Shown: positions 1 through 64,000, numbered from the stretch's first letter. The stretch is 64,000 bases of DNA from a virus (IMGVR_UViG_3300020048_000007:32001-96000); one strand, 5' to 3'. Made by a program: numbers and translations. The notes: generated by a model not told the origin, from the sequence alone.

Positions 1-1
1 T

Positions 2-1054
2 CAAGTTACCAATATTAGCTGGAGACCAGCCTTCAGAAGCAACACCACCAAGAACACCACCATCTTGGTAACGAGAACCCTTCATGGCTTTCATGCCGCC
101 GCGATTCTTTGGCTTGGCTGGCCAATCATGTCCAACTGATTTCTGATAACCGTCTTCTGGCTTACCTACCGAACTCTTGTGTGAACCTTGTGGTCCGCCG
201 TCAACACCATTATCATCGACATCCGACATGGCGACGTTGCGTGTTTTCTTGCGCGGCCATTGTTCGCCGTGGCTGGTTAATTCTGATTCAGCGTTGTGGT
301 CAATTCTGCCTAGTGATGGGGCTTGGACGCCTTTGCCACCCTTTTTCTGCATTTTACCATCGCCGGGCTTGTAATTTCCTGCTGCGAAATCAGGCGAGTA
401 TTCTCTAACCAGTCTTCTACGGCTCATAGCATTCTCCAGTTTAGTCTTCTTGGTGATTTTCTTTTTGCTCTTTCGAGTATCAGTTCCGAAGGCTACTGGT
501 GCTAGAGCTATGGCCGCTGTACCAGTGAATGACTCACTGTGGGTAGCACCGTAGTCTAGTCCATCACCCCGATAGTCATTATTATATTTGTCGGGACGCA
601 CAGTGCCCCTGTAATTAGCCCCAGCAGGAGGAACCACATCCTCAGAGTCAAAATCAAGCTCAAACTCATCATCAGCAAGAAGATCCTTACTGGCATCCAT
701 ATTGGCATAAGGCTTCGTGCTACCGGACATGTTAGTGAGAGAATCACCAACGTTCCGAGCAGAATCACCTCTCGAAGCCACAAGTTGCGGCGGGCTAGGC
801 TGATTAGTCATCCTATTATATGTCGGCTCATCGGCCATAATAGACGTACCAACAGGTCCAAATTCAACATCTTCAGCCATTTCAATAACGTCTCTGGCTA
901 ATTCGTTCAAAGTCTCTTCTTCTTTTTTACGGTCTTTAGAAGATCTTCTAATCTGCTCAATATTATTCATCTTATTAATTCGATAGTCGACATCCTTCAT
1001 TTTAGGAATCTGACTATCGACTTTAGTCACCTTACGAATTGTCTTACGTGCCAT
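2..1054 (-). CDS. Partial low-complexity protein (runs off window start); candidate internal head/scaffold protein
   Basis: Not in the ORF track. Hand translation from ATG at 1054 (MARKTIRKVTKVDSQIPK...) stays open to position 2. AGGAGG lies upstream. Charged, Gly/Pro-rich sequence with L-x-E motifs (TLNEL, KLENA). Confidence 0.75.
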   Translation of the reverse strand, partial: MARKTIRKVTKVDSQIPKMKDVDYRINKMNNIEQIRRSSKDRKKEEETLNELARDVIEMAEDVEFGPVGTSIMADEPTYNRMTNQPSPPQLVASRGDSARNVGDSLTNMSGSTKPYANMDASKDLLADDEFELDFDSEDVVPPAGANYRGTVRPDKYNNDYRGDGLDYGATHSESFTGTAAIALAPVAFGTDTRKSKKKITKKTKLENAMSRRRLVREYSPDFAAGNYKPGDGKMQKKGGKGVQAPSLGRIDHNAESELTSHGEQWPRKKTRNVAMSDVDDNGVDGGPQGSHKSSVGKPEDGYQKSVGHDWPAKPKNRGGMKAMKGSRYQDGGVLGGVASEGWSPANIGNL

Positions 1055-1565
1055 CAGTGGGCCTCCTGTTACCCTTATATTTAGATAAAATCCAATTCTT
1101 CTCAGATATCTCATCGACCAAATGTGAGTCAGACTTAGATAAAAACTCGACAAAAGCAAACCCATCTGTTAACAGGTATTCACACACGAGCTTGTCAGCA
1201 CAAAAATCGCGGACCTGATTCTCCAAACCAGCACCAGAAAAAGACTTCCTACGCGGTATTGTTACAATCTTGCCAGAGAAATAACTCAAAAGCTCATTAA
1301 TCACTACCTTATCAAACCCAGATTTATCAAGTAACATATAAGGAAAATTCCTTTGCAAGAATTCCCTCAGCCTCTCAGCACCGGATGGCTTAGACATCAC
1401 CTCAGCCAAAACAGCTTCCATCAATCTACGATTGTCAGAACAGCCTTTATTCGCTTTAAGCCTTTCAAGAAAACCGCGATAAATAACCACATCAAAACTC
1501 GACAGCCATGACTGCCATACATGAGAAGTACTCAGACCGCAAAATGAAGAAGTATCGATTTTCAT
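1044..1565 (-). CDS. Hypothetical protein
   Basis: 173-aa ORF overlapping both neighbours in a co-directional run. Confidence 0.7.
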   Translation of the reverse strand: MKIDTSSFCGLSTSHVWQSWLSSFDVVIYRGFLERLKANKGCSDNRRLMEAVLAEVMSKPSGAERLREFLQRNFPYMLLDKSGFDKVVINELLSYFSGKIVTIPRRKSFSGAGLENQVRDFCADKLVCEYLLTDGFAFVEFLSKSDSHLVDEISEKNWILSKYKGNRRPTDGT

Positions 1566-3550
1566 GATGGGAATAACACCGCGTCAAATTGGGCGTTGCC
1601 AGTAAGACGGTACATCTCACCTTTTTTGATCATATCTTTAACAACCGAATTGATTGACTCATCATATTTAAAGTTAAAATCACCAGTAAGCAGTAATTTA
1701 ATGCCATTAAAAGTAGGGAACGCGAATGCTACCTTGCCGAAAGGTTTAAAAATATTATAGCACTCACAGCTGGCATCGTCTATAGAGATTATGGCATAAT
1801 CCTGGCCCATTAAATTCACAATACAGCCATCACAGTCTAGCTTCTTCCATGATTTTTCATGCTTCTTTGCATCAGCATAAGGCATAGTGCAATAGCCTGC
1901 TACTACCTTCTGAATATCAATTACCTGCTCGGGCACTATCTCAATAGAAACGTGACCAGACGATATTAGACCAGGTTCAATTGGCAACCACCACTCCGTA
2001 ACACCACCATCATGCTTAAAACTAACCGCTAGACCCTCATATACATCACGTGAATCAGCAGGATCGGTGAATTCGCCTTTATATAGGAAAGAACTATATT
2101 TCTTCCGACTGTTAGACATGTATGTGAAGCGGACATTAGAGCGGAAAGTCTTACCGACTTTAGACCTGGCAACTCTTATGGAAGCCTCATACTTACCATT
2201 GGGTAGCTCGATTTTCACGCTAGTTAATACGCTATTACTGTAAGCTGCATCGATATTAACGGGATATGAGATGGAGTTGGTGGCTTTCTCTGCCGCAAAC
2301 GTGATAAGCTCACCACCTCCATCAGGTCGTGTGACTATGCCAGTATTAACAGGTGGAAGCCCACCACTACTGCTACTAAATGTCGTTCCACTACTAGTTC
2401 CATAATTGGGAGCTGTGGGGAAAGTATCGGTACCGGAACATGCAGGTGTGAAACTATAACCAAGCTCTTGCAAAGACTTAGTGCCTTTAACCTTAGACGC
2501 ATCAGCATCATCTTTGTTATGAAGAGTAATCTTAGACTTACCAAGAGCTGATGCTGCGACACTTTCCATATGCCGCCTATTGTCTACATTCTTAGTAAGA
2601 GAAATGCATTTTTCTAAAGCACATCCAAGAGCGGCTTTCTGGGTGTCGAACATATCGGACATATTTTTAACCCAAGCAGTCACTACAGCTTCGTAACTTG
2701 CCTTCAGCGCAGTAACCTGGGTTGTAAAATGGCTAAAAATACTGTCAAGCATCTGATCAATATCAACATAGTTTATCTTATTAGATCCAGTACTTGTATC
2801 GAATGCCAGAATCCAAGGGCTTTGACTACTTGCTGTCGCTAATTGCTGAGCAGCCAGAGCCCCCACAGCTTGCCTCGTAAACGATAAGACCTTTTTGTTT
2901 TCATCAAGAGGATCAGTGATCAATTTAGCGCCAGTTAGAACAGTATTGAGCCCGATATTTGGCGAAGCAGAGTAAGTCTCCTGCGTAGCGCTATAAATGC
3001 AAGGAACCCCCTTCCCGGGCAACCCTGTGTCTCCCGGAGGTCCAGAAAAGATAGAAGGCTGACCAGCAGGGCCAACGGGTCCAATATCACCATCAGGGCC
3101 AGCAGGCCCAAAAAATTCTACACTGCCAAGCGCAGTCATTTCAGCTAAAAACGACTCCAGATCAATACTAAAATCAATGCCATACGTAAAACTATGGATT
3201 TTAAAGTCAAAATCCTGAGAAATATTATCACCGAACTCATCAATATTTTGGGCATTCAACTTGGACTTAATCACCAAATTGTCATCACCAGACTCTAGCT
3301 GGATGAAACCCCGGTCATAAACGCAATCACCCACAGTTAGGGTCGACTGAGGTGGCGGTATTAGCATCCTAGATAGCTTGCGATAATCCGAAGCAGATAG
3401 AGCTCCCGAGGTCCTATTAGTAGCAGTCTGAAGAGGGATACGCCCAGTGAGGGTCTGAATCCAAGTTCTCAGAGTAGCTTCATACGTATACAATGTACCG
3501 TCCGGTGAAAGAAAGCTCTGCCCGTCAGTTGGATTTTCTGGAAAAATCAT
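1562..3550 (-). CDS. Collagen-like fibre/virion structural protein
   Basis: Likely start MIFPENPTDGQ at 3550 (ATGA overlap with the upstream stop; ORF track starts 3565). The N-terminal FP-x-NPT-x-GQ...YTY...W motif is typical of phage fibre proteins. G-X-Y triplets (GPAGPDGDIGPVGPAG). Confidence 0.7.
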   Translation of the reverse strand: MIFPENPTDGQSFLSPDGTLYTYEATLRTWIQTLTGRIPLQTATNRTSGALSASDYRKLSRMLIPPPQSTLTVGDCVYDRGFIQLESGDDNLVIKSKLNAQNIDEFGDNISQDFDFKIHSFTYGIDFSIDLESFLAEMTALGSVEFFGPAGPDGDIGPVGPAGQPSIFSGPPGDTGLPGKGVPCIYSATQETYSASPNIGLNTVLTGAKLITDPLDENKKVLSFTRQAVGALAAQQLATASSQSPWILAFDTSTGSNKINYVDIDQMLDSIFSHFTTQVTALKASYEAVVTAWVKNMSDMFDTQKAALGCALEKCISLTKNVDNRRHMESVAASALGKSKITLHNKDDADASKVKGTKSLQELGYSFTPACSGTDTFPTAPNYGTSSGTTFSSSSGGLPPVNTGIVTRPDGGGELITFAAEKATNSISYPVNIDAAYSNSVLTSVKIELPNGKYEASIRVARSKVGKTFRSNVRFTYMSNSRKKYSSFLYKGEFTDPADSRDVYEGLAVSFKHDGGVTEWWLPIEPGLISSGHVSIEIVPEQVIDIQKVVAGYCTMPYADAKKHEKSWKKLDCDGCIVNLMGQDYAIISIDDASCECYNIFKPFGKVAFAFPTFNGIKLLLTGDFNFKYDESINSVVKDMIKKGEMYRLTGNAQFDAVLFPS

Positions 3551-6500
3551 ATCATAACACTCCATACTCTTTTGCCAACGACCATGTGAGATGCTTCCTT
3601 ACCAGATGACGCTTGCATAGCATGAATATAGTCCGCATCAGTAGCCATCGCCAATAAGGGCGACGCAGCAGGAGGAGAGACCGCAGGAGGTGACACCGCA
3701 GGAGGTGATACTGCTGGAGGAGAGACCGCAGGAGGAGAGACCGCAGGAGGTGAGACCGCAGGAGGTGAGACTGCAGGAGGTGATACCGCAGGAGGTGATA
3801 CCGCAGGTGGTGAGGCTGCTGGTGGCGAAGCTGCTGGTGGCGAAGCTGCGGGTGGTGAGGCTGCGGGTGGTGAGGCTGCTGGCGGCGAAGCTGCGGGTGG
3901 TGAGGCTGCAGGCGGTGAGGCTGCTGGCGGCGAAGCTGCGGGTGGTGAGGCTGCAGGCGGAGATATGGCGGGTGGTGAAATAGCGGGCGGTAGAGCCGCA
4001 GGTGGCGCTGCTGCTGGCGGTGCTGCAGCAGGAGGTGATGCAGCGGGTGGTGAAACACTTGAGGACGAAGATGAGGAAGCAGATGATGAGGACGGAGTAC
4101 CACCGCAACCGAGGAATGTAATCGCGTACTGCACTGACGGAGCCCTGAATTCACACATAGTGAGCTCATTAGCGATATTGCTAAGAATATCTCTTGCTTT
4201 GCCATCCAAAGAATTAATGTAATCTTTTACCTGCAAACCCCATTTCTCATCGATCTGAGCTAATAGTGTCTTGTACTTATCCGCATATCCTTGAAGCATC
4301 TCAGACAGTTTCATGGTGGCATTAACTTCCACCGTATTAGATGCAGGACCTTTTGGTACTCTGGCAACAAATGGGTCTGTCGGAGAAGTGTCAATATTGG
4401 GATTGATAATAGTAATATTAAAGCAACTATCTAAAGTGATTGCTCTATTTAATCTGGATGCGATAATCCTGTTTGGCGCGACGTTTAAAACATTTAATGG
4501 TGCCTTCGTCAAGACGAGTTTACAGCCATTATCGCCATTGTTTACGATTTGTATGTCAACTATGGCTTCATTTGTTAGGCCACTACCGTCGACATAGTTT
4601 ACACCGCTTACTTTGCAAATCCCATCAGCTGGTTCGCCTTGCAAGCCGATAAGACCTTTTGGTCCATCACTAAAACCATCAGGGCCAGCAGGGCCTGCCG
4701 GACCAGTCTGACCTTTTGTCCCAGTCGGGCCTGGGTTATAGAATAAAAATCCTTTTTTGTATGCATCACTAATCCTAAAGTCAATATATTCGGTCTGTGT
4801 CTCTTGGTTTAACCCATTTGTGACACATCCATTTCTTCCGGTAATAGTTATACTGTTACTGACTATTTTGATATCGCCAGAAATCACACCATGCGGGTTG
4901 TCACGAGATTTTAATTTTTCCCTATTGTCTATTAAGATACCGAACCCACCAGGGGCGGCTGGTACCCGATCTATGGCAGTCTTCTCAGCTCCGCTAATGA
5001 GACCGCAATTATCTGCGGACGCGAGTACACCATCAGCTGTTGTCCCCGTCCGCACCCATTCCTTCAGAGAGCTGTAGTAAACCCACCGAACACCACCGTA
5101 ATCTATTCTGGTATCGACGTATTCGCTCAAACTGTTTGGTACAAGCTCAGTCCTCAGACTACTACAATCTAGATAGCTTGCACCATTAACAAGAGCTGCA
5201 CCATCAGGCCCCACTGATAGAGGTAAAACACCAAAACACTTGGCATCAGAATCTAATGTGTCATAGTTAATCGGAGCAATATCGATTACCGACCCGCATT
5301 CATAGCTTGGAACATTGGTGATGACTGGAGGGGAGGCAACTACCTGTTTTTCTAGCTGTGTGTATGTTATGATTCTTGGTGACGATGGTGAAGATTCTGA
5401 TGGTATGTCTATGACTTCTTCAGCGACCTGCGCTAAGATATCGTCACCATTAGTTCCTGGCAATGACGGGTTAATAGGTCCCGATTCGGTGTTTGGAAGA
5501 GCGATAGGTAATTGTTTTGGGGGGTCTGGTATGATTATAGGATCTGGTTGAATAACTGGGGGTGGCACGTATGGCGGAACGATCGGCGTGATAACCTGCT
5601 TTGGAGTTCCTGAGCCTCTATTATAAATCGCCAGAACATCATAGCCAGTTATGTCTGTGTCGTAAACTCTGACGTCGTCATAATATGATAAACCTGGCAA
5701 GCTAAATTTAAAGCCAGCAGATCCTAAACGATCGCTATACGTATAAGGTGTTGGATCTGGTCTGCCAAAGTAACCAGTGTTTTTAGAATCTTTGAAACGC
5801 CCAAATCCAAGTGGGGTTCGGTGATCAGTGTCAAGCCACGAAAAATTGGTATTATAAAAATTGATATTGAATTCAGAAAATGGCTTGCCGTCTTTATAGA
5901 TGATTAACCTTTGGTATTGGTGTGAGTAGACCATCGCAAAATGTGAAAAATCAGGGTATACTGCTATCTCCGGGAACGGTATCGTCGTAGGTCCCGGTAA
6001 GTCAAGGACGTAACCCTTATCACTATGCATAATCATACCGAACATACTATACAAATATAGTTCGAATTGATTTCTATTTGTTGTCTGTAGAATACCGTCT
6101 TGATCTACAGTTCTAATTGGGCTAAAATCATTATATCCGACGGCCATCCAAAAGCAGAGAGACGTGTTGCGGTACTTCGAGTTAAATAGGTTAGAATTAG
6201 GCCAATTATTGTAAGCAGTATCGTTAAAATCTGTAATCACGGAATTGGGTGATATGACTACATCTCTATTATCCTTACCAATCCTAAGGCATTCACCTAC
6301 CGCACCGATTTCGAAACTACAACCACTTTTATACAAATTGTACGGCATGCTTGACACTTTGCCGCCATACGTTGCCTTATAGGGCTTCGGATTCACTGAG
6401 TCATATGTAAAATTGCCTCTACCAAATGCTGTTATCTCCTCCGGCGTCTGTGTTATGCCAGAGTCAGAATCAAATTTTAAGTGCCTTCTTGGCTCTATCC

Positions 6501-7332
6501 CTAAACCTTCTAATTTATCCTGTTCTTCGCTAGGATTATTAAAATTGTAGATCTCTTCCGTCGGTTTTGAAGCAGGGATTCTTACGGAGTTGAATTTATC
6601 ATCGTATATTCTTAAATCATCCAGACAACCATTCAACCTTATCTGGTTGATTAATAATGCTCCAAAAGAAAAGTCGATATTAAGGTTTGTGCTAACTAGT
6701 GTCTTTTCATCATTAACACTAACCTCTATATCAGCTTGAGAGCTCGCTTGTGGTTTAGGTTTAACGGTTATTGCTACAAAATACCAGACATCTCTCTCTA
6801 TTTTAGGGCCGAACTGCGTGGATTTGCCGTTATAAGTAAAATTAAAAAAACTCGTCTTGGTGTTTAAAATAACCGCCAGTCCACCACCGTTGCCTAAAAA
6901 CTCAATTCTAGGCACCAAATCACCATAAATTGAAGTCGGTGGCGAATTTGGTGTAGAGCCAGTGGGAAAACCTAGAACATTGTATTCTAAGCTGGAATAT
7001 TTCAGCCAACAAGTTATTCTAGTACCATCTTTTATGCGAGTCACAACAGGGTTAGCGAGCTGGTTAGTGTTCGGGCTCCCGAACTTTAAAGAAGCATAGC
7101 CCTTAAAACATTGCCCAAGCTTACCATCTGTTAAAAATTCACCATCACCCAGTAATGTACAGCCAGAATGTTTCGTGCCATTCCAGTCAGCTACGAGAAA
7201 ACCATCAGGAAACATTTCCGGCTTTGGCAGCGGTTTGCCGTTTTTATCGGTCGCAAATTGGTAAACGTCATCAAGTACTACTACGCTATCATGCAGGTTG
7301 CCATTAAACTTCCAATAATGTAGCAGGCCCAT
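3547..7332 (-). CDS. Large adhesin/fibre-like protein: two LamG/ConA-like domains, Pro-rich linker, collagen segment, SPPA(A/V) tail
   Basis: LamG-type motifs LHYWKFNGNL, WYFVAITV...LDDLRIY and a second HFAMVY...YYDDVRVY. Collagen GPTGTKGQTGPAGPAGPDG. C-terminal pentapeptide repeat. Confidence 0.75.
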   Translation of the reverse strand: MGLLHYWKFNGNLHDSVVVLDDVYQFATDKNGKPLPKPEMFPDGFLVADWNGTKHSGCTLLGDGEFLTDGKLGQCFKGYASLKFGSPNTNQLANPVVTRIKDGTRITCWLKYSSLEYNVLGFPTGSTPNSPPTSIYGDLVPRIEFLGNGGGLAVILNTKTSFFNFTYNGKSTQFGPKIERDVWYFVAITVKPKPQASSQADIEVSVNDEKTLVSTNLNIDFSFGALLINQIRLNGCLDDLRIYDDKFNSVRIPASKPTEEIYNFNNPSEEQDKLEGLGIEPRRHLKFDSDSGITQTPEEITAFGRGNFTYDSVNPKPYKATYGGKVSSMPYNLYKSGCSFEIGAVGECLRIGKDNRDVVISPNSVITDFNDTAYNNWPNSNLFNSKYRNTSLCFWMAVGYNDFSPIRTVDQDGILQTTNRNQFELYLYSMFGMIMHSDKGYVLDLPGPTTIPFPEIAVYPDFSHFAMVYSHQYQRLIIYKDGKPFSEFNINFYNTNFSWLDTDHRTPLGFGRFKDSKNTGYFGRPDPTPYTYSDRLGSAGFKFSLPGLSYYDDVRVYDTDITGYDVLAIYNRGSGTPKQVITPIVPPYVPPPVIQPDPIIIPDPPKQLPIALPNTESGPINPSLPGTNGDDILAQVAEEVIDIPSESSPSSPRIITYTQLEKQVVASPPVITNVPSYECGSVIDIAPINYDTLDSDAKCFGVLPLSVGPDGAALVNGASYLDCSSLRTELVPNSLSEYVDTRIDYGGVRWVYYSSLKEWVRTGTTADGVLASADNCGLISGAEKTAIDRVPAAPGGFGILIDNREKLKSRDNPHGVISGDIKIVSNSITITGRNGCVTNGLNQETQTEYIDFRISDAYKKGFLFYNPGPTGTKGQTGPAGPAGPDGFSDGPKGLIGLQGEPADGICKVSGVNYVDGSGLTNEAIVDIQIVNNGDNGCKLVLTKAPLNVLNVAPNRIIASRLNRAITLDSCFNITIINPNIDTSPTDPFVARVPKGPASNTVEVNATMKLSEMLQGYADKYKTLLAQIDEKWGLQVKDYINSLDGKARDILSNIANELTMCEFRAPSVQYAITFLGCGGTPSSSSASSSSSSSVSPPAASPPAAAPPAAAPPAALPPAISPPAISPPAASPPAASPPAASPPAASPPAASPPAASPPAASPPAASPPAASPPAASPPAVSPPAVSPPAVSPPAVSPPAVSPPAVSPPAVSPPAVSPPAVSPPAASPLLAMATDADYIHAMQASSGKEASHMVVGKRVWSVMI
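3664..4053 (-). repeat. 15-bp coding tandem repeat, 26 units encoding (S/A/L)PPA(A/V/I)
   Basis: Visible directly in the DNA. One block is built from gaggctgctggtggc-like units (SPPAA) and one from gagaccgcaggagg-like units (SPPAV). Confidence 0.95.
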
Positions 7333-7442
7333 TTGGTTTCTCGTAATGGCTAGTGGCTTATTATCTTATCTTTAATTACTGAATATTCAATCATCACAAA
7401 AGCCAATATATCTGGATTAAAATAGATTAGACAAAGGAGACC

Positions 7443-8912
7443 GTGATGCCAGACTTCGTCGCACTTAAAGTAAAAGAAGCAAACCAAGACCAATTACTAA
7501 AGAACCCAAACGTAATCGGCACAGGAATAGGCAACAAAATAATAGATGGCAACAGGCAATCTGCTATCATCGTCTTCGTAGAACAAAAACTGCCAAAAGA
7601 CGAAGTAATAGCAAAATACTCAGCCGAAGAGTTGATACCAAAAACACTACAAGGTATACCCACAAGAATTATAGAAACTGGAAAAATAGTCCCACAAGGA
7701 TTTATGGAAAGAGTAAGACCAATCAGACCGGGGTATAGCTCAGGACACGCAACCATAACAGCAGGGACAATAGGTGGAATATTCAAAGACAAAGACGGTG
7801 ACATAGTCGCGCTATCAAATAACCACGTCTTTGCTGCAGAAAATCGGGCTCTAATAGGTGACCCAATCTACCAGCCAGGACGCATGGACGCACAAGCTGG
7901 CAGCATAATGTTCACAAACTGGGATCAGCCCGTATCTAATAAGCCCTACTTCGGGACACTGAAAAAATTCATGGCCCTAAATAGGTCAAATAACCTACAT
8001 GATTCTGCCATAGCGAAAATACACCCATCATACGTCGACAGTGGTTTAATTGACACAAGATATCCACAGCTTGATAAGCCTCTGGCAGGGATTGCCTCGG
8101 CAGCAATCAACCAAGACGTACAGAAGTGTGGTAGGACGACAGGTCTCACAGCAGGCAAAGTGGTGGCGTTACACGGCTCATTTACCATCGGATATGATTT
8201 TGGGCAAGCGAGGTTTAATGATTGTATAGTGCTGACTGGAATGAGTGCTGGAGGTGATAGCGGGAGCGTTATCATGGATACCAACATGAATGCAGTCGGC
8301 TTACTTTTTGCAGGCAGCGGTAAGGTCACTCTTGCCAGCCCGATTCAGTATGTCATTTCTGAATATGGCTTGACAGTTTACAACGACCAGATAAAATCTC
8401 AATCTGCTGAACATTCCAAAGATTGGACCATGCATTCTGCGAACGGTGTGGTCATCGGCACTCCAGCCACCATGACTGTTAAGTCGAATAATAATTCAGC
8501 ATGTTACGTCGAAAGGAAAATCGGCAGGGCTAATTCGATAAGTGTCAAGATTAACACGATGAACGATAAGGATACTGATTTCGGACCGTCACTCGCCTTA
8601 CTATTTGATGATAATTTCATCAAATTAACATTGGGCTCTGATGGAGTGTCGCTTAGCACCAAGGATTCAATGATAAAATCGGACCTTAAGCCTTTACAGT
8701 CCACCGAGTATATGTTGAGATTGCGCTTGAGGGGCAACGTTTGGAATGCTGATATCCTTGACGATACCGATTGGGTTTCGATCGGGTCAGTATCCATCGC
8801 CGCTGATCCTATTTTGGCCAGGATCGGTAAGCTAGATAAAGCTGCTTCCTGCAGCATGGAGCAGGGAAGCAGCCAAGTATCTTCTTATTATAGTGATTTC
8901 AAGATCAGTTGA
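7443..8912 (+). CDS. Trypsin-like (S1/PA clan) serine protease with N-terminal pro-region and beta-rich C-terminal domain
   Basis: Catalytic triad motifs in order: LSNNHV (His), DSAIA (Asp), GGDSGS (Ser). AAGGAG RBS before GTG/ATG. Confidence 0.85.
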   Translation: MMPDFVALKVKEANQDQLLKNPNVIGTGIGNKIIDGNRQSAIIVFVEQKLPKDEVIAKYSAEELIPKTLQGIPTRIIETGKIVPQGFMERVRPIRPGYSSGHATITAGTIGGIFKDKDGDIVALSNNHVFAAENRALIGDPIYQPGRMDAQAGSIMFTNWDQPVSNKPYFGTLKKFMALNRSNNLHDSAIAKIHPSYVDSGLIDTRYPQLDKPLAGIASAAINQDVQKCGRTTGLTAGKVVALHGSFTIGYDFGQARFNDCIVLTGMSAGGDSGSVIMDTNMNAVGLLFAGSGKVTLASPIQYVISEYGLTVYNDQIKSQSAEHSKDWTMHSANGVVIGTPATMTVKSNNNSACYVERKIGRANSISVKINTMNDKDTDFGPSLALLFDDNFIKLTLGSDGVSLSTKDSMIKSDLKPLQSTEYMLRLRLRGNVWNADILDDTDWVSIGSVSIAADPILARIGKLDKAASCSMEQGSSQVSSYYSDFKIS

Positions 8913-9372: not shown

Positions 9373-9717
9373 ATGTTTGACAACTACGAAGATTTCTTCA
9401 AAAAAAGCGACGCTGATATTGAAGAATTGACATATGGCCAGATGATGCATGCTCTAGCTGGTGAGTCAGGCAGTACCAATCACTCACACACCACGAAAAC
9501 CCATACAGCCACTTCAATTCATCGTACCAATGAGTTGCCGCAAACGGCCAAAGCACAACGCCTAATAGACGGTAACTACTATGAATGGATAGAGGCTGAT
9601 AAAAAATGGATAAAAATCATAGAAGACAGCCCAGAACCACCAGCCCACTGGGAGCCAGGCTTATTCGATGGAGAAATCAGAAAATACATCCCATCAAACC
9701 CTGAGCACAGCCAATAA
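9373..9717 (+). CDS. Hypothetical protein
   Basis: 114-aa ORF with a GAGG RBS; first gene of a plus-strand run. Confidence 0.65.
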   Translation: MFDNYEDFFKKSDADIEELTYGQMMHALAGESGSTNHSHTTKTHTATSIHRTNELPQTAKAQRLIDGNYYEWIEADKKWIKIIEDSPEPPAHWEPGLFDGEIRKYIPSNPEHSQ

Positions 9718-10711
9718 AGACTGCATATATCGCCAGCAAAAAATCGATAAAGACACATACGTATGCAACCACAGAGGCTTCTGCCAAATACAAGACTGCA
9801 TAAACAGCGAACTCCACACACACTACAAAATAATAAAACAAAACATAGCAGCACCCAATAATATAAGCCTAGCAGCAGCGGTCCTAACCAGCAAAAGAAG
9901 AACACCCACCCTAAACAGAACATGCAGATTCCTCAAAGCAGCAGGAATCACAGAAATAGACATATATAACGACTCAGAACGAGAAGAACCACTTGGCATA
10001 TACGGCAACTGGCTTGTGGGTGCAACATCCACTTACATAAAAAGAAGAAAAGACTGGTACCTCATAATCCAAGACGACATATTCATAAGCAACGACACAC
10101 TATCAAGAATATCTAACCTCGACAATACCAAAATATACAGCCTATTCGCCCCGGAAAACATGGCGCCCAAAAACGGACCTGGCTGGTACACCATATCAAG
10201 ATACTACAACGGACCAAACTGCCTGCTAATACCAGCAGCCATACTAGAACAACTTATAACTAGCAAAACCGCACTAAGACACTGCATAGCGAGAAAAAAA
10301 CAACACTCAGCATACGACGACCTAGGAATATTCGAAGAACTAATAGAATCAGAAATACCGATATCATACCACTACCCAAACTTCACCATCCACTGGGCAA
10401 TCAATAGCACGCATAACAAAAAACAATACCACAAAAAAGTGCTGAGTAAAGCAGCGATAGGCACATACATAGCAGACCTTACAGGCATAACGCATACACC
10501 AACAATCAAAAGCACATCAAGATACACACCAGAAGAAATAATAAGCATATACCACGAAAAAGGCAACGTAACCTACCACTGCTCAACAGGAGAAATAAAT
10601 GGAGAATTCACATACGACCCAAAAGCATACTACATAGAGGTAAAAGAAGAAGGCAACAACACAGACCAAGCCATCATGAGCCTAACGGATAGAGTATTTT
10701 GGACCAAATAA
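9668..10711 (+). CDS. Putative GT-A-fold glycosyltransferase
   Basis: LGIYGNW...WYLIIQDDIFIS (hydrophobic strand plus DD metal motif). Located in a glycan-modification cluster. Confidence 0.55.
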   Translation: MEKSENTSHQTLSTANKDCIYRQQKIDKDTYVCNHRGFCQIQDCINSELHTHYKIIKQNIAAPNNISLAAAVLTSKRRTPTLNRTCRFLKAAGITEIDIYNDSEREEPLGIYGNWLVGATSTYIKRRKDWYLIIQDDIFISNDTLSRISNLDNTKIYSLFAPENMAPKNGPGWYTISRYYNGPNCLLIPAAILEQLITSKTALRHCIARKKQHSAYDDLGIFEELIESEIPISYHYPNFTIHWAINSTHNKKQYHKKVLSKAAIGTYIADLTGITHTPTIKSTSRYTPEEIISIYHEKGNVTYHCSTGEINGEFTYDPKAYYIEVKEEGNNTDQAIMSLTDRVFWTK

Positions 10712-49860: not shown

Positions 49861-49861
49861 A

Positions 49862-50473: not shown

Positions 50474-50575
50474 TATTCGCTTCTTGTGTCAGATATGAGG
50501 CGGGGGGAAAGTTGGGGGAGTTGGTAGCTCGTTCTGGATTCTTGTTGTGTTCGTCATTAGTCATTGCCTTTGGTG

Positions 50576-53912: not shown

Positions 53913-55592
53913 TCAGACCTTTTCTAATCTGAAACCATAGACCACAATAGTTTCATTATACCCATCATGCTTAATATCACCAGCACCCTGCACTATATCA
54001 ACACCGTGCATATCTATTGACTTATCTAAGATAATATCATAATAAACCCCAGTGCCATCCCCAATAGTAACAAAAGTCATGTCCTTCATTTTCCTGTGGC
54101 AAGCCACGAGACCCCTAAAATCAAGCCAATCACCTTCCCTCCGAAAATGCAATCCATTCGGAATCACATCCTTAAACCACGACCCAAAACGGTCATATTG
54201 CTCCTTAATGTCCGGCTCAAATAGCCACATCTGATACTGAGGCTTCTTAAGAGACTGCTCATGAAGATACCACTTCGGCCTTCCCATGTCTATCTTGAGC
54301 CCGGCCTTCTTAGCTTCCTGAATATAAACCCACGGCCTGTACATCGATTTACAGTGATTCAACGTCGCCTTCCAAAATCTGTGCGGATTATACACCTTCT
54401 GATAAGCCAAAGCCCACACAAGATACGCATAACTTAACGCATGCGACTTGCAAAACGAATACATCTTTATCTGTAAAAGATCTGAGATAATAATATCCAC
54501 ATCTGGATGATGCGATATCTTCTGCTTGAACTCATCGATAATCTTAAAGTTATTCTTAGCAAACGCCCTCCTATAATAATCTGCCCGATCCTCTGAGCAC
54601 CCCAGCAGACCCTGTATCTGTTGTATCGCATCATCCTCAAACACTATCTGAGTTATCTTCCTCTCTTCATTCCACGTATCCAAAAAAGTCTTCTTTCTAC
54701 CTCTAGACGCAGCCGCAGGACGTATTAAAGCCAGAGCAACAGCCAATTCCTGGATATTCTTCGGCTTTACCGCCTTAGCTGCCTTCCTAAACGTCGGAGA
54801 CTCAGCGAATGTGATCCCAGTCACATCCCCTGAAGCAAATAATTCAGCTATCTTAGGATCATTATCAGGATATGAACTCAGAGCCCTCTGATCAATATCA
54901 AGCAGCTGGGCTAAAGCACGATTGCATAATAAGTCAATCTTTAAAATGCCTAGCTCATCCACATCATTTTTATCATAATAAATCTGGTTCCTGCCTATCA
55001 GCAAGTCTCTCGGCACTTCATCTTCAAAGAACACTAGACCACCACAGTGAAGGGAGAAATGAGAGTGCTGGTCCATAAGACACTCAGCTAGCTCTAAGAC
55101 TCTCTCTTCCTTCCCAGGCATTAAATCTTTTACGTTCGCTTTTCTGGGTATCTTAGACTTACATCCAAGTCTACGCATGGCTTCTCTAATAGCCCCGTCT
55201 TTCCTGTAGTGTATCCGGTTGCTTATCCTCGCTACTTTTTTAGGCCATTTATCAAATATTTTTTCTATTATCTCGTCTCTTCTATCGTATGGGAAGTCTA
55301 AATCTATGTCTGGATTATCTGGTCTATGGTCATTCATAAATCGAGCTAATGATATGTTATCTCTTATTGGGTCTATTTCGCTTATGCCCATTAGATAACT
55401 CACTAAGCTACATGACGCTGATCCTCGCGTTATATGGGGTATACCATCAGCGATTTTTATGATGTCGTCTACTTTTTCGAATATGCACGAGAACTTAAAT
55501 TTCTCAATCAGTTCGAATTCTCTACTCAACCTATCATGATATTGCTTTTGAGGAGGTATTGGCCTTTTGAATCGTTCTATGAGATTATGCAT
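53913..55592 (-). CDS. dnaE: Compact DNA polymerase III alpha-subunit (family C) catalytic core lacking the PHP domain
   Basis: RGSASCSLVSYLMGISEIDP, RFMN-x-x-R-x-x-x-PDIDLDF, HCGGLV, KIDLL, YSFCKSHALSYA. Only 559 aa. Confidence 0.88.
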   Translation of the reverse strand: MHNLIERFKRPIPPQKQYHDRLSREFELIEKFKFSCIFEKVDDIIKIADGIPHITRGSASCSLVSYLMGISEIDPIRDNISLARFMNDHRPDNPDIDLDFPYDRRDEIIEKIFDKWPKKVARISNRIHYRKDGAIREAMRRLGCKSKIPRKANVKDLMPGKEERVLELAECLMDQHSHFSLHCGGLVFFEDEVPRDLLIGRNQIYYDKNDVDELGILKIDLLCNRALAQLLDIDQRALSSYPDNDPKIAELFASGDVTGITFAESPTFRKAAKAVKPKNIQELAVALALIRPAAASRGRKKTFLDTWNEERKITQIVFEDDAIQQIQGLLGCSEDRADYYRRAFAKNNFKIIDEFKQKISHHPDVDIIISDLLQIKMYSFCKSHALSYAYLVWALAYQKVYNPHRFWKATLNHCKSMYRPWVYIQEAKKAGLKIDMGRPKWYLHEQSLKKPQYQMWLFEPDIKEQYDRFGSWFKDVIPNGLHFRREGDWLDFRGLVACHRKMKDMTFVTIGDGTGVYYDIILDKSIDMHGVDIVQGAGDIKHDGYNETIVVYGFRLEKV

Positions 55593-60767: not shown

Positions 60768-61403
60768 ATGAGCATTATGATAGGCATACCTGTAATTTAT
60801 AATGAGACTTGTGTAAGAATATGCTTAGAACACTTAAAAAATCAAAACACCGAATTATTCATAATAGACAACAACTCAGAAGAATCGATCAAAAAACTAA
60901 TCGAACCATATAAAAAAATAGTAAACGCACAAAACGTATACGTGAACCCAGCATGGAACCAAATACTAGAGGAATTCCTTAAAACAGACCATGACCTATT
61001 AGTCATAATGAATAGCGATCTATACCTTAATCACGACGTGATAAAGAAACTAAGCGAACTAGACTTAGATAGAGATAAAACCATAGCATGTCTAAACCTA
61101 GTAGACCTCTTCTATGAATGCGAGAGGCAAATAACCTATGTTAATGGTGGCGTAGCAGGCGTCTTTATCCCTTTAACCCAAAAAATGGCAAGAGAAGTAT
61201 ACCCAATACCGCCAGAACTAAAAATCTGGTACGGTGATAACTGGATATATGAAAAACTCAAAAAAATAGGCTACCAGCTAACAATATTTAACGATTTACA
61301 AGCCCAACACATCTGGAGCAGTAGCGTTGGCGTACTGCCAGAAGCACACCAAGTTATAGAACAGGACCAACTAGCATGGCCGACAGTACAGACACGCATC
61401 TGA
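60768..61403 (+). CDS. Glycosyltransferase family 2-like
   Basis: IGIPVI...FIIDNNS...NVYVNPAWNQ...VIMNSDL...IWYGDNWIY. Confidence 0.75.
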   Translation: MSIMIGIPVIYNETCVRICLEHLKNQNTELFIIDNNSEESIKKLIEPYKKIVNAQNVYVNPAWNQILEEFLKTDHDLLVIMNSDLYLNHDVIKKLSELDLDRDKTIACLNLVDLFYECERQITYVNGGVAGVFIPLTQKMAREVYPIPPELKIWYGDNWIYEKLKKIGYQLTIFNDLQAQHIWSSSVGVLPEAHQVIEQDQLAWPTVQTRI

Positions 61404-61972
61404 CCCGCGACATCATAATCAACAGACTTATCCAACAAAAAGAATACAAATCATACCTAGAAATAGGAATCCAATACAAAGTCAATTGGAACCTTATTAA
61501 ATGCCAAGACATGGTCGGCGTAGAACCGTCAGCAGATGAAATGCATGACGACAGAATAATCAAAGTCACAAGCGATCAATACTTCGCAAACCACACCAAA
61601 ACTTTTGACATTATATTCATAGACGGCGACCATAACGCACCAACCGTAAGCAGAGATCTCGAAAATTCATTCAAAGTTTTAAACGAAGGAGGAACAGTTG
61701 TTCTACATGACACATATCCTCCAGAAGAAGAATTTACACACCCGTACAGATGTGGAACAGTATACGAAGCTGTCTGGCAATTCAGACAAAACCCAGGCTT
61801 CGACATACTCACATACCAACATGACTTCGGAGTCTGCCTTATGAAGAGAGGACAGACTGACAAGACAATACATCCAAAGACAACATACTCGGACTACGTG
61901 AACAACGCTAGAGAAATTATCAACTTAAAAAGCACAAACGAGGAATTTTACAGAGCACTAAAAGAATGGTGA
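61376..61972 (+). CDS. Class I SAM methyltransferase (Methyltransf_24-like)
   Basis: KSYLEIGI, FDIIFIDGDH, LNEGGTVVLHD. Confidence 0.85.
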   Translation: MADSTDTHLTRDIIINRLIQQKEYKSYLEIGIQYKVNWNLIKCQDMVGVEPSADEMHDDRIIKVTSDQYFANHTKTFDIIFIDGDHNAPTVSRDLENSFKVLNEGGTVVLHDTYPPEEEFTHPYRCGTVYEAVWQFRQNPGFDILTYQHDFGVCLMKRGQTDKTIHPKTTYSDYVNNAREIINLKSTNEEFYRALKEW

Positions 61973-61994
61973 TCTTAGGCATCTAACACTCCTA

Positions 61995-62360
61995 TTATAC
62001 TGCATCAGACGCGCACGGTTTATCGCCAAGATATAATTCGTACCGAAAACGGCTAGAATGCGGTTGGTGCGGATACAAAGTATTGCTCATGACACTGAGA
62101 GTACTAAATGTTTCAACATATCCGTCGCTGTACTTTAGTAGCAGTCCCGTTTCAAGGTCGCGTTTGACCCAATATACATTGAACTCGCTTTTGTTAAGTT
62201 TATCGACTTCTCGTGCCGTTGGCCTGATCGTGCCGTTAGCTATATCTAAAATTCTACACATCTGGTAGACCACCATCGCAGCAATCTTAGCCTCGCCATT
62301 TGGCAGAGAGTCAATAAATTCAAGCGGCGTCTTGGCCCCCACAACGATCTTGTCACTCAT
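61995..62360 (-). CDS. Hypothetical protein
   Basis: Probable start MSDKIVV at 62360 after GGAG. Confidence 0.6.
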   Translation of the reverse strand: MSDKIVVGAKTPLEFIDSLPNGEAKIAAMVVYQMCRILDIANGTIRPTAREVDKLNKSEFNVYWVKRDLETGLLLKYSDGYVETFSTLSVMSNTLYPHQPHSSRFRYELYLGDKPCASDAV

Positions 62361-62765
62361 CACATGCTCCATTATTAGCAAGCCTCATCAAATCGGGTTA
62401 GTATGATCTTGTGGGTCACCGCTTCTGTCGCATCTTTAGGTATCCACGTCGCTTCGGCCTCAGACGGCGAAACAAACTCGAAAGAGCGATAAAACCAAGG
62501 GAAATACCATTCGAACAATACCGTCTGATTCACAGTCGCTGAGACTCTATGAGGAGCCGGTACCAGGCCACTTTCAAATTGGGCGAAAAAGCGCGACGCC
62601 GCATCCACAAGCTCAGCAGGTGGAGCAATTGAATCTTCCCCATCAAAATTATTCTCATAATTTCGTATTCTAAGCAATTCAGAGTCAATAATTTCAAGTG
62701 ACGTCATCCTCTTGGCCTCCACAACGATCTTGTCACTCATCACACGCTCCATCATTAGCAAGCCT
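62331..62765. repeat. 55-bp direct repeat (62331-62385 and 62711-62765) covering the translation starts of two adjacent genes
   Basis: 3 mismatches in 55 nt. Weaker similarity continues about 25 nt further into both genes after a 6-nt indel. Confidence 0.9.
62375..62740 (-). CDS. Hypothetical protein
   Basis: Probable start MSDKIVV at 62740 after GGAG. Confidence 0.6.
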   Translation of the reverse strand: MSDKIVVEAKRMTSLEIIDSELLRIRNYENNFDGEDSIAPPAELVDAASRFFAQFESGLVPAPHRVSATVNQTVLFEWYFPWFYRSFEFVSPSEAEATWIPKDATEAVTHKIILTRFDEAC

Positions 62766-63239
62766 AGCCTTACGAGAACGCTCAGAAATCCTCATACGAA
62801 CCTCATCCGACACATTCCTAGCCCTAACACTAGCCTCACAACGCATCTCCTCAGACCAAGCACCCACCAACTTAGAATTCAAACGCTCCCTCAACACACC
62901 ACCATCAAAAACAATATCATACTTCACACAAAGACGCTGAACAGACGCAACAGAGGAATCAAACATCAACGCCAACTCGCCAATAGAATGCTTATCCCTA
63001 TTCTCCCGAATATACCTAATAGTCTCCTCATTATCAAGCTTACTCCTCATCTTAAGAGCACTAGCCTCACTACGAGACCGCTTAAGCCCAAGATGCTTAC
63101 ACAATTTAGCTATAGTACGCTCAGGCTCATAATAATACTCACCAATCTCTGCATGTGTCCAGCCCTCATTAAACAGTTTAATCGTCAGCTGCTTAATCTC
63201 ATCACTGAACCGCTCATGAACTGGAACTGGCGCAGGCAT
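62733..63239 (-). CDS. HTH / NUMOD3-like DNA-binding protein
   Basis: Two HTH-like segments (WTHAEIGEYY...TIAKLC; SIGELALMFDSSVASVQRLC) and the NUMOD3-like VSDEVRMRISE. Confidence 0.6.
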   Translation of the reverse strand: MPAPVPVHERFSDEIKQLTIKLFNEGWTHAEIGEYYYEPERTIAKLCKHLGLKRSRSEASALKMRSKLDNEETIRYIRENRDKHSIGELALMFDSSVASVQRLCVKYDIVFDGGVLRERLNSKLVGAWSEEMRCEASVRARNVSDEVRMRISERSRKARLANDGACDE

Positions 63240-63922
63240 TATATGCTCTCCTGACTCTTGCGAAGGTCGTAATACATATCCAATACCTTCTTCATATCAT
63301 CATTGGTGAACTTCTGCTTGGCTAAATTAGCCCACATGCATACTAATTGCACATTGCCCTCAATATATCCGCGCTTAGAATCAATACGGTCTATCGACAG
63401 AGCCATCAAATCCGACCACTTATGTGCCATTGTTAGCCCGCTAATAGCACATCTACCTTGATTTAATTCATAAAGTCTTCTGATGTATGAAAAAGAGACT
63501 TCAAATTCCACATCTCTCCTTCTTGCTCCTAATCTTTGTTTAGCTGTGCCTTTGCATCTTCGATAAACATAATTCAAAAATATGTCCATAGAAGATTGCC
63601 AATAGTCATTTGAATGCTTTCTAATTTTCTCCCTATTATCTTTATAATATTCTTTCTTGTATTTTAACAGCCTGGCGTTATTTTTGCTATAATAAACATT
63701 GGTATAGCCTTTTGCGCATTTTTTGCATATATTACAATCTTCTTTAAATTCAGAGTCCAGACGAGACACACCACAGCTCCTACAAAGATTCCTATCTATC
63801 AAAGGCTTTCGAGAAACCACAACTGTTTTACAATCCACACAGACCCATCTTTCGGGGGCTTTTTCTCTCAACATTCGTGAGGAACCGCATCGGCAAGTAT
63901 CAGGTCTCTTCAGAGTAGGCAT
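63239..63922 (-). CDS. His-Me finger (HNH-like) homing-type endonuclease with N-terminal Zn-binding motifs
   Basis: GRCAISG...SIDRIDSKRGYIEGNVQLVCMWANLAK. N-terminal CxC/CxxC pairs. Confidence 0.8.
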   Translation of the reverse strand: MPTLKRPDTCRCGSSRMLREKAPERWVCVDCKTVVVSRKPLIDRNLCRSCGVSRLDSEFKEDCNICKKCAKGYTNVYYSKNNARLLKYKKEYYKDNREKIRKHSNDYWQSSMDIFLNYVYRRCKGTAKQRLGARRRDVEFEVSFSYIRRLYELNQGRCAISGLTMAHKWSDLMALSIDRIDSKRGYIEGNVQLVCMWANLAKQKFTNDDMKKVLDMYYDLRKSQESI

Positions 63923-63924
63923 AT

Positions 63925-63999
63925 TTATCCTTCATATTGGCTTATTTGATCTATAACTGTCTGATCCTCTATGATATAAAATACATAGAAACGACAATA
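63925..63999 (-). CDS. Possible 3' end of a gene entering from beyond the window
   Basis: Open frame ...YIIEDQTVIDQISQYEG* ends 2 nt before the next ATG. Too short to be sure. Confidence 0.35.
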   Translation of the reverse strand, partial: YCRFYVFYIIEDQTVIDQISQYEG

Positions 64000-64000
64000 C

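What the first reader, a model, noticed from the sequence alone, without database searches (positions are those of the whole stretch)
1..64000. Kilobase-scale patches of alternating amino/keto (A+C vs G+T) strand skew that ignore gene orientation and flip inside genes
Seen (hand counts on selected 60-nt lines, so these are extremes): plus-strand A+C is 47/60 at 62881-62940 but 15/60 at 50701-50760 and 15/60 at 23281-23340, and all three lie in minus-strand ORFs. Inside the single dnaE gene it is 23/60 at 55261-55320 and 42/60 at 54121-54180. The shifts look largely synonymous (A<->G, C<->T). Established: long single-strand exposure gives C->T and A->G bias on the exposed strand. Inference: local, strand-specific mutational patches, for example from many recombination-primed initiation sites, a deaminase or base modification, or an error-prone polymerase, rather than one origin/terminus skew. 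Several minus-strand genes appear A+C-rich on the coding strand just after their start (dnaE, the PD-(D/E)XK nuclease, the fibre), but 47649-49352 does not fit.
Basis: partly seen in the sequence, partly recalled or inferred. Interest (0 to 1): 0.66.

Follow-up and report, generated by a model that had tools for sequence, protein, structure and literature searches.

The report
Patchy strand skew in giant phage
In this uncultured freshwater giant phage and its close relatives, the freely variable DNA positions switch every 0.4-5 kb, often within a few codons and often at gene starts, between A/C-rich and G/T-rich on one strand; sister phages with the same genes do not show this, so an undescribed, strand-specific DNA process seems to act in fixed domains.

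Summary
All five hand counts are exact. The A+C versus G+T skew (K) is concentrated at synonymous sites. Its per-gene variance at fourfold sites is 7.4 times the binomial expectation, and intergenic DNA shares it.

It follows the physical strand across oppositely oriented neighbours (r=0.51). It also flips inside 52 of 157 genes, to within about 12 codons at the sharpest flips. It is not blind to genes: 69% of sharp low-to-high flips lie within 100 nt of a gene start, and in 72% of genes the first ~100-130 codons are richer in A+C on the coding strand than the rest.

The pattern is lineage-specific:
- Present in close relatives, a 72%-identity relative and an independent complete 356-kb PurZ-bearing phage.
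- Absent from sister phages with orthologous genes, and from T4, phiKZ and phiVC8.
- The dnaE orthologue has the opposite sign in one relative.
- It barely depends on neighbouring bases, so UV dimers and APOBEC-like enzymes are excluded. It is not repeated, so these are not GRINS in the strict sense.

Best reading (about 50%): a domain-wise, strand-asymmetric transition bias tied to transcription and replication architecture. The enzymology is unknown.

The scan has noted similar sawtooth skews in unrelated archaea and bacteria.

The parts
572..3748 (.). Patch with + strand third-position K (K3+) of +0.32 over minus-strand genes, so the coding strand is G+T-rich
   Evidence: segmentation
7291..7916 (.). 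K3+ +0.56. This is the 5' block of plus-strand gene 7443-8912 (coding K3 +0.62 in the first 130 codons, -0.03 in the rest)
9597..10863 (.). K3+ +0.70, a very strong A+C-rich patch. It starts near the start of plus-strand gene 9668-10711 and weakens downstream to +0.25 at 10866-12605
17574..21186 (.). K3+ +0.32 over five minus-strand genes (coding strand G+T-rich). It ends about 200 nt inside gene 20715-21389
21189..23790 (.). K3+ -0.40 to -0.80. Minus-strand genes 21382-22848 (TPR), 22841-23389 (methyltransferase-like) and ORF 23386-23784 are A+C-rich on the coding strand. The patch stops at the ATGA stop/start overlap with the RCC1 gene
25786..26163 (.). K3+ -0.38. This is the 5' block of RCC1-repeat gene 23785-26106
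26166..28248 (.). K3+ +0.42 over minus-strand genes 26121-27347, 27349-28038 and the 3' end of 28041-28673 (coding strand G+T-rich)
28251..28668 (.). K3+ -0.41. This is the 5' block of gene 28041-28673. The flip inside the gene at about 28227 is resolved to 12 codons (K3+ +0.61 to -0.39)
37003..37491 (.). K3+ -0.26. This is the 5' block of the 2284-aa fibre-like gene 30568-37422
37494..38737 (.). K3+ +0.43, spanning a plus-strand ORF and two minus-strand genes
38740..39250 (.). K3+ -0.45. This is the 5' block of gene 38299-39204 (coding K3 +0.49 against -0.25 in the rest)
42320..42707 (.). K3+ -0.46. This is the 5' block of gene 41222-42742, and it holds an 84-nt unit repeated three times
47332..51092 (.). 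K3+ -0.42. One patch covers minus-strand genes 49349-51097 (coding strand A+C-rich) and plus-strand gene 47649-49352 (coding strand G+T-rich). It lies in a region that is variable between relatives
53952..54909 (.). K3+ +0.58. This is the 3' two-thirds of the DnaE-type polymerase gene 53913-55592 (coding K3 -0.44 to -0.64). The sign is reversed in the orthologue of L007
54912..55592 (-). 5' third of the same gene, coding K3 +0.1 to +0.3. This block is weaker in relative L003
57393..59391 (.). K3+ +0.41, running through the divergent junction between minus-strand genes 57381-58093 and plus-strand genes 58195-59445
60824..62739 (.). K3+ +0.40, running through the convergent junction between plus-strand genes 60768-61972 and minus-strand genes 61995-62761
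62741..63141 (.). K3+ +0.91, the most extreme patch. About 93% of the third positions of minus-strand gene 62733-63239 are G or T on the coding strand, while K1 and K2 are near 0. Two relatives show the same

Best explanation
The patches are the footprint of a lineage-specific mutation bias. They are not a product of protein or codon selection.

Shown: within fixed DNA domains of 0.4-5 kb with sharp edges, one strand has a much stronger excess of amino-to-keto transitions (C>T, A>G) than its partner. The log(C/T) and log(A/G) ratios each differ about 7-fold between oppositely skewed patches, so the exposed strand becomes G+T-rich. The bias hardly depends on neighbouring bases, as expected for hydrolytic deamination of DNA that is repeatedly single-stranded or for a polymerase asymmetry.

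Shown: domain polarity is set by the physical strand but is anchored to gene starts. At many gene starts the skew jumps. The next 40-160 codons are A+C-rich on the coding strand, and gene bodies tend to be G+T-rich.

Inferred: if the standard sign holds (leading or displaced strand G+T-rich), gene starts behave as points where forks or exposed tracts converge. Sites 120-480 nt inside genes then behave as points where they diverge. This is expected if DNA synthesis or R-loops start downstream of promoters, as in ColE1, T4 oriF/oriG and mtDNA. The enzyme and the DNA transaction are not identified.
For: Where the skew sits:
- It is strongest at fourfold sites.
- Intergenic DNA shares it (r=0.75).
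- It has the same sign across oppositely oriented neighbours (r=0.51, n=43; r=0.67, n=94 in the complete genome G011).
- The extreme coding-strand classes are mirror images: T .51 G .21 A .15 C .13 against A .45 C .28 T .15 G .12.

Lineage specificity:
- Orthologous genes have K3 of +0.69, +0.42, -0.34 and -0.39 here. They have the same values in a relative with 90% amino-acid identity, but only -0.18 to +0.13 in four sister phages.
- The block-variance ratio is 4.7-7.9 in the clade. It is 0.9-1.6 in six sister loci and 1.2-1.5 in T4, phiKZ and phiVC8.
- The dnaE orthologue of L007 has K3 +0.33, against -0.30 here.

Gene anchoring and sharpness:
- 36 up-jumps against 24 down-jumps. 69% of up-jumps lie within 100 nt of a gene start (16% at random), against 4% of down-jumps, which lie 120-480 nt inside genes.
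- The 5' effect is +0.147±0.025 here and +0.120±0.016 in G011, but 0.002 and 0.011 in non-patchy relatives and reference phages.
- The sharpest flips are resolved to 12-17 codons.

Mutation spectrum:
- The shift in log(C/T) is +1.89 where no dipyrimidine is possible, against +2.07 and +2.19 elsewhere. The shift in log(A/G) is about the same size.
- In + strand A+C-rich patches, polarised third-position changes give G>A .051 against C>T .021, and T>C .051 against A>G .024. The implied equilibrium K is +0.44, against +0.55 observed.
- Patches with a G+T-rich coding strand look maintained in both gene orientations.
Against: - Minus-strand genes with an A+C-rich coding strand show 8 amino-to-keto against 30 keto-to-amino recent changes. 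The implied equilibrium is +0.16, against -0.45 observed. These patches are therefore either decaying relics or held by selection against mutation pressure.
- Counts are small, and terminal-branch singletons mix polymorphism with recombination imports.
- Divergence between relatives is not higher in skewed patches (r=0.08).
- The mean profile around gene starts is one-sided: +0.12 downstream and almost nothing upstream. A symmetric barrier or break model would predict a mirror image.
- Box-like patches with two sharp edges are not what a decaying exposure gradient predicts.
- No promoter motif, deaminase, UDG or RNase H gene was found, and no RNA or replication data could be obtained.
Confidence: 0.5

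Rival explanations
1. Mosaic inheritance. The clade has, or had, a strong uniform strand bias, for example from replication. Patches are modules or gene pieces brought in by recombination from relatives where the same DNA lay in the opposite context. Their skew is then a relic that slowly fades.
For: - Relatives are strongly mosaic, with 72-98% nucleotide identity segment by segment.
- The cassette 58195-61972 and the region around 43400-51870 are present, absent or rearranged between relatives, and the cassette is inverted relative to dnaE in L007.
- Several alignment breakpoints (23784, 26078, 51126, 53959, 57349, 64067) fall at patch edges.
- Edges inside genes are codon-sharp, as recombination joints would be.
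- One patch class is out of equilibrium, 8 against 30.
Against: - Random imports cannot give a fixed polarity relative to gene direction. The first 100 codons are more A+C-rich in 80 of 111 genes here and 102 of 137 in G011, and the effect is absent from sister phages.
- There is no drop in identity at the intragenic flip of dnaE between the window and L003.
- K3 of patches is identical in relatives even at 61-70% third-position identity (r=0.99).
- Other patch classes have substitution rates that maintain the skew.
- A source of extreme skew is still needed.
Confidence: 0.2
2. Selection on nucleic-acid properties. A+C-rich (G+U-poor) 5' coding regions keep the mRNA unstructured. Alternatively, if the DNA carries 2-aminoadenine (Z), selection may keep Z out of the template strand or tune RNA:DNA hybrid stability, because RNA has A rather than Z. 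The gene-body skew would then be ordinary transcription-linked mutation.
For: - The effect is anchored to gene starts and has a fixed polarity.
- The 5' effect is seen across 13 PurZ-bearing loci (+0.076±0.014) but not in other relatives.
- The excess of keto-to-amino singletons in patches with an A+C-rich coding strand is what purifying selection against mutation pressure would give.
- purZ is present in this genome.
Against: - The same patch runs through genes of opposite orientation, so it is A+C-rich for one mRNA and G+T-rich for its neighbour. Of 44 strong segments in the genome, 17 span both orientations.
- Intergenic DNA shares the skew.
- Patches lie deep inside a 4605-aa gene.
- Coding K3 down to -0.86 has no obvious benefit.
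- The dnaE orthologue has the reversed sign.
- The Z-genome phage phiVC8 and 8 of 13 PurZ loci are not patchy.
Confidence: 0.15
3. No special biology: the pattern comes from amino-acid composition, chance, ORFs called on the wrong strand, or assembly artefacts.
For: Skewed DNA opens long ORFs on both strands (for example 62712-63254 + against 62733-63239 -). My gene caller is home-made.
Against: - K1 and K2 are near 0 where K3 is -0.86, which fixes both frame and strand.
- The strand of the methyltransferase-like and dnaE genes is confirmed by homology.
- Shuffles give no change points.
- The same pattern appears in independent metagenome assemblies.
- Controls run through the same pipeline are flat.
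Confidence: 0.02

Closest known systems
[quoted passage not shown]
   Same: - Intense, correlated GC and TA skews (G+T against C+A).
- Both signs occur on one strand within 1 kb, with abrupt changes.
- Strongest at third codon positions, with a mild effect on amino acids.
- The mechanism is unknown.
- The authors also mention single-copy skewed regions.
   Different: GRINS are defined as repeats longer than 500 bp with more than 80% identity, spread by gene conversion. Here the skewed patches are single-copy, and the genome's internal repeats are unskewed. The patches here are also anchored to gene starts, cover about 39% of the window, include intergenic DNA, and occur in a phage.
Replication-associated strand asymmetry of bacteria (leading strand G+T-rich; extreme in Borrelia burgdorferi; review PMC10030826)
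   Same: The same axis (G>C together with T>A on one strand), and it is independent of gene orientation. It is attributed to deamination of single-stranded DNA.
   Different: Bacteria show one or two polarity switches per replicon. Here there are 93 in 231 kb, patches are 0.4-5 kb, many switches sit at gene starts, and the amplitude at fourfold sites (up to ±0.8-0.9) is far higher.
Transcription-associated asymmetry (non-template strand G+T-rich; PMC10030826, PMC2927911)
   Same: Gene bodies here lean towards a G+T-rich coding strand, and recent changes in those patches show C>T and A>G in excess on the coding strand.
   Different: - The 5' blocks and whole small genes have the opposite sign.
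- The sign continues into genes on the other strand.
- Sister phages with the same operons lack the pattern.
Skew jumps at replication origins in yeasts and human 'N-domains' (own knowledge; also named in earlier scan notes)
   Same: Many sharp jumps of strand skew at fixed sites along one chromosome, read as sites where DNA synthesis starts.
   Different: Those domains are 10 kb to Mb in scale, with a linear decline between jumps. Here patches are box-like, at kb scale, in a phage. The sharp jumps at gene starts also have the polarity of a bacterial terminus, not of an origin.
Vertebrate mitochondrial H/L-strand asymmetry (own knowledge)
   Same: A/C against G/T at fourfold sites of comparable strength, caused by time spent single-stranded.
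   Different: Mitochondria have one polarity for the whole molecule and a smooth gradient. They lack alternating sharp-edged patches.

Membership tests
GRINS | Intense, correlated GC and TA skews (mean absolute values >0.15) | tested here: met
   For example 9501-11000 has GC skew -0.20 to -0.27 with AT skew +0.42 to +0.47, and 50001-51000 has +0.22 with -0.41 to -0.45.
GRINS | Skew most marked at third codon positions | tested here: met
   SD of K is 0.27 at position 3 and 0.30 at fourfold sites, against 0.10 and 0.09 at positions 1 and 2.
GRINS | Region >500 bp duplicated at >80% DNA identity elsewhere in the same cluster or genome | tested here: not met
   Self-BLAST of the 231 kb found no repeat at 80% or more. 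The longest repeats (72-76%, in the fibre and RCC1 genes) have K near 0.
Replication (leading/lagging) skew | G>C and T>A on the same strand, independent of gene orientation | tested here: met
   Fourfold composition of the extreme classes. Neighbours of opposite orientation correlate at r=0.51.
Replication (leading/lagging) skew | One or two polarity switches per replicon, at the origin and terminus | tested here: not met
   93 change points in 231 kb, and 35 up-jumps plus 24 down-jumps in the complete genome G011.
Transcription-associated skew | Sign follows the coding strand (non-template strand G+T-rich) | tested here: not met
   Coding-strand K4 runs from -0.77 to +0.76. The 5' blocks have the reverse sign, and the sign persists across orientation switches.
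UV dimer / transcription-coupled repair signature | C>T asymmetry confined to dipyrimidine contexts | tested here: not met
   The shift in log(C/T) is +1.89±0.07 for C/T flanked by purines on both sides, against +2.07 and +2.19 otherwise.
APOBEC-like enzymatic deamination clusters (kataegis) | Preference for a 5' neighbour (TC or CC), and a deaminase gene present | tested here: not met
   Shifts by 5' base are A 2.25, C 2.40, G 1.67 and T 1.85. There is no PF00383 match in the 231 kb held. Other deaminase folds were not searched.
mtDNA-type strand-displacement gradient | Skew changes smoothly with time spent single-stranded | tested here: not met
   Both edges of patches are sharp, with 95% sets of 12-17 codons at the best ones. 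The increments of the smoothed profile are nearly unskewed.
Origin-anchored skew domains (yeast, human N-domains) | Jumps coincide with mapped replication origins | not testable with these tools

The most novel reading that the evidence does not exclude
These PurZ-bearing giant phages may copy or repair their DNA from very many promoter-linked start sites, through R-loop-primed synthesis a few hundred bases inside genes, so that each gene start is a fork meeting point. Because RNA carries A and not Z, RNA:DNA hybrids in Z-DNA would be most stable where the RNA is G+U-rich. Exposure of the displaced strand and keto skew would then reinforce each other and lock DNA into sharp-edged domains of either polarity. 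That would be a new replication architecture for a virus and a new consequence of Z-DNA.
Probability: 0.12. Interest if true: 0.9.

Novelty: new variant of a known kind. Interest (0 to 1): 0.75.

Why it matters
The footprint records which DNA strand is treated differently, place by place, in a virus nobody has grown.

- If mutational, it is a free map of a DNA transaction (initiation, termination, R-loops or resection) with about 90 fixed sites in 231 kb. That number is far above anything known for phage replication. It may also explain similar unexplained skews, namely GRINS and the sawtooth skews this scan noted in archaea and bacteria.
- It distorts codon usage by up to about 7-fold within single genes. 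Codon-based gene finders, host prediction, horizontal-transfer detection and dN/dS tests can therefore be misled in this large freshwater phage clade.
- Patchy and non-patchy sister lineages carry the same genes. The cause could therefore be found by comparative genomics.

Tried and rejected
**Explanations rejected**
- Amino-acid composition: the skew peaks at fourfold sites.
- Chance: shuffles give no change points.
- Wrong-strand ORFs: the phase of the skew and homology fix the strands.
- GRINS repeats: none found at patches.
- UV dimers with transcription-coupled repair, and APOBEC-like context: rejected by the context test.
- Higher mutation rate in patches: no relation between |K3| and divergence.
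- PurZ (Z-DNA) as a sufficient cause: phiVC8 and 8 of 13 PurZ loci are flat.

**Searches that found nothing or were inconclusive**
- A shared promoter motif at flips: k-mer enrichment and inspection of 25 upstream regions found none. The sigma-70 consensus scan was barely above shuffles.
- Phage-encoded deaminase, UDG, UvdE, RNase H, DenV or photolyase: none in the 231 kb held, which is only 64% of the genome.
- Loss of UvdE as the cause. UvdE is present in three non-patchy relatives and absent from all 13 PurZ records and from this genome. The fragments are incomplete and the UV signature is missing, so this was left as a bare correlation.
- Megablast against isolated phages: no match.

No fold or complex prediction was needed.

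Full report
**Source.** The window is bases 32001-96000 of a 231,672-bp IMG/VR virus record, which CheckV estimates to be 64% complete. It has no near match among isolated phages. Genes found include RCC1-repeat proteins, a DnaE-type polymerase piece and a methyltransferase-like protein. purZ lies elsewhere in the genome. Earlier scan notes describe the phage as a freshwater giant phage without its own RNA polymerase.

**The observation.** All five hand counts are exact. K=(A+C-G-T)/length runs from -0.34 to +0.36 in 500-nt windows. I called 225 genes with a self-trained codon model.
- Coding-strand K has an SD of 0.10, 0.09, 0.27 and 0.30 at codon positions 1, 2, 3 and fourfold sites.
- K4 variance is 7.5 times binomial, against 1.75 times for GC4.
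- The two extreme gene classes are mirror images: T .51 G .21 A .15 C .13 against A .45 C .28 T .15 G .12.
- Third-position K on the + strand is autocorrelated out to about 200 codons.
- It segments into 94 pieces with a median of 1.8 kb and K3 from -0.80 to +0.91. Shuffles give no change points.
- About 24.9 kb of the 64-kb window lies in pieces with |K3| of 0.3 or more.
- Against within-gene synonymous shuffles, 52 of 157 genes are heterogeneous at p<0.01, where 1.6 are expected.

**Strand or gene?** The + strand K3 of the 100 codons on each side of a gene junction correlates equally for co-oriented pairs (r=0.51, n=168) and opposite pairs (r=0.51, n=43; convergent pairs 0.76). Intergenic K follows the flanks (r=0.75). 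Of the 44 strongest segments in the genome, 17 span both orientations. In the window these include 47332-51092, 57393-59391 and 60824-62739. The skew therefore belongs to the physical strand.

Genes still matter:
- In 57 of 79 long genes the first 130 codons have a higher coding-strand K3 than the rest. The mean difference is 0.16 (p=2e-6) and holds in both orientations.
- Of 36 sharp low-to-high jumps, 69% lie within 100 nt of a gene start, against 16% at random. Only 4% of the 24 high-to-low jumps do, and they lie 120-480 nt inside genes.
- This jump polarity is unchanged by reverse complementation.
- Read directly, the flip falls at an ATGA stop/start overlap at 23784/23785, and within a few codons inside gene 28041-28673.
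- Change-point sets are as narrow as 12-17 codons.
- Patches also occur deep inside a 4605-aa gene.

**Relatives.** Close relatives (82-98% nucleotide identity, strongly mosaic) carry the same K3 in every patch, even at 61-70% third-position identity (r=0.99). Divergence is unrelated to |K3|.

The pattern is not a property of the genes themselves. The dnaE orthologue in L007 (72% amino-acid identity) has K3 +0.33, against -0.30 here. Orthologues of four window genes have K3 near zero in four sister phages at 50-62% identity.

| Group | 60-codon block variance ratio (observed/binomial) |
|---|---|
| This clade | 4.7-7.9 |
| Six sister loci | 0.9-1.6 |
| T4, phiKZ and the Z-genome phage phiVC8 | 1.2-1.5 |

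The 5' effect is equally lineage-specific:

| Group | 5' effect (first 100 codons minus rest, coding K3) |
|---|---|
| This genome | +0.147±0.025 |
| Patchy relatives | +0.134±0.027 |
| Non-patchy relatives | +0.002±0.013 |
| Reference phages | +0.011±0.015 |

Among 13 PurZ-bearing giant-phage loci, five have block-variance ratios of 1.9-4.1 and eight are flat (1.1-1.5). The complete 355,825-bp genome G011 reproduces the whole pattern:
- block-variance ratio 4.9;
- 35 up-jumps, 54% at gene starts, against 25% at random and 12% for down-jumps;
- 5' effect +0.120±0.016;
- opposite-orientation neighbours correlated at r=0.67.

**Nature of the bias.** Between patches that are A+C-rich and G+T-rich on the coding strand, log(C/T) shifts by +1.89 where no dipyrimidine can form, and by +2.07 and +2.19 otherwise. 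Log(A/G) shifts by a similar amount, and the 5' base matters little. This excludes UV dimers with transcription-coupled repair and TC/CC-specific deaminases. It fits a roughly 7-fold strand asymmetry of transitions.

I polarised third-position singletons among three or more close sequences.
- In + strand A+C-rich patches, G>A runs at .051 against C>T at .021, and T>C at .051 against A>G at .024. The implied equilibrium is +0.44, against +0.55 observed. This departs from a uniform process (chi-square about 13.5).
- Neutral regions imply +0.08, against +0.02 observed.
- Split by gene strand, patches with a G+T-rich coding strand look maintained in both orientations. Minus-strand genes with an A+C-rich coding strand show 8 against 30 changes, so they are out of equilibrium.

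Counts are small, and singletons may include imports and polymorphism.

**Interpretation.** Five features argue for a lineage-specific, domain-wise mutation bias rather than codon or protein selection:
- the synonymous and intergenic location of the skew;
- its coherence on the physical strand;
- the mirror-image composition of the extreme classes;
- its near independence of sequence context;
- its absence from sister lineages, together with the reversed orthologue.

The gene-start anchoring ties the domains to transcription units. With the textbook sign (exposed strand becomes G+T-rich; PMC10030826), gene starts have the polarity of convergence points and intragenic sites the polarity of divergence points. 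Both R-loop-primed synthesis downstream of promoters and 3'-tail exposure after breaks at gene starts would give this polarity. All of this is inference.

Several things weaken the reading:
- The mean profile around gene starts is one-sided.
- Patches are box-shaped.
- One patch class is out of equilibrium.
- No enzyme or motif was found.

Mosaic import surely contributes, but it cannot explain the fixed polarity. Selection on mRNA or on Z-containing templates could explain the 5' blocks, but not patches shared by opposite genes.

**Comparison with what is known.** The closest published description is GRINS (PMC8256042). GRINS show the same G+T/C+A third-position skews with abrupt sign changes and an unknown cause. 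They are defined as repeats, which these patches are not. Surveys of huge phages report only genome-scale GC skew (PMC7162821). The extended 5' effects described for bacterial genes are small and of another kind (PMC12725619). Earlier notes of this scan report similar sawtooth skews in unrelated archaea and bacteria. I did not test those.

**Verdict.** The finding is a real, strong, clade-specific footprint of an unidentified strand-specific DNA process. I rate it a new variant of local skew domains, with interest 0.75.

Noticed in passing
window 42436-42640: An 84-nt unit occurs three times in tandem inside the 5' block of gene 41222-42742. Each copy contains an 11-bp-stem hairpin followed by a T-rich run on the + strand, which is antisense to the gene.
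   Followed up: no
window 58195-61972: A six-gene plus-strand cassette of unknown function is present in L006 and G001 but absent from L003, L004 and L005. In L007 its first three genes lie in the opposite orientation relative to dnaE.
   Followed up: partly
genome 213650-214750 (purZ); records G006-G019: PurZ and UvdE did not co-occur. None of the 13 PurZ-bearing giant-phage records, including a complete one, has UvdE. The UvdE-bearing record G006 (173 kb) has no PurZ match. Non-patchy relatives L030 and L031 carry UvdE.
   Followed up: partly
window 23386-23784, 1044-1565, 12554-13198, 14771-15373, 51094-51567: These are ORFs of 132-214 aa that my codon-usage gene caller skipped. At least 23386-23784 looks real, because it continues the A+C-rich coding patch in frame. 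Strongly skewed genes can be missed by codon-based callers.
   Followed up: partly
window 30568-37422 and 26121-27347: The 2284-aa fibre-like gene has internal repeats of about 1-2 kb at 72-75% identity, and the RCC1 genes repeat at 65-73%. None of these repeats is skewed.
   Followed up: no
L031 8642-9859; L032 6989-8749: A TnpB/Cas12f-like gene sits beside the TPR gene in one sister phage. A Mom-like (PF25680) DNA-modification gene sits in another.
   Followed up: no
G011 15-45 kb and 345-356 kb: In the complete relative the strongest skew lies near the record's ends. K3+ is +0.55 over minus-strand genes, then -0.41 over mostly plus-strand genes, and +0.63 in the last 11 kb. The IMG/VR label says direct terminal repeats, but the first 200 nt did not recur in the record.
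   Followed up: no
whole genome: There is an overall + strand excess of A+C at third positions (about +0.11 to +0.14), while 72% of genes lie on the minus strand. A weak genome-wide strand bias therefore underlies the patches.
   Followed up: partly
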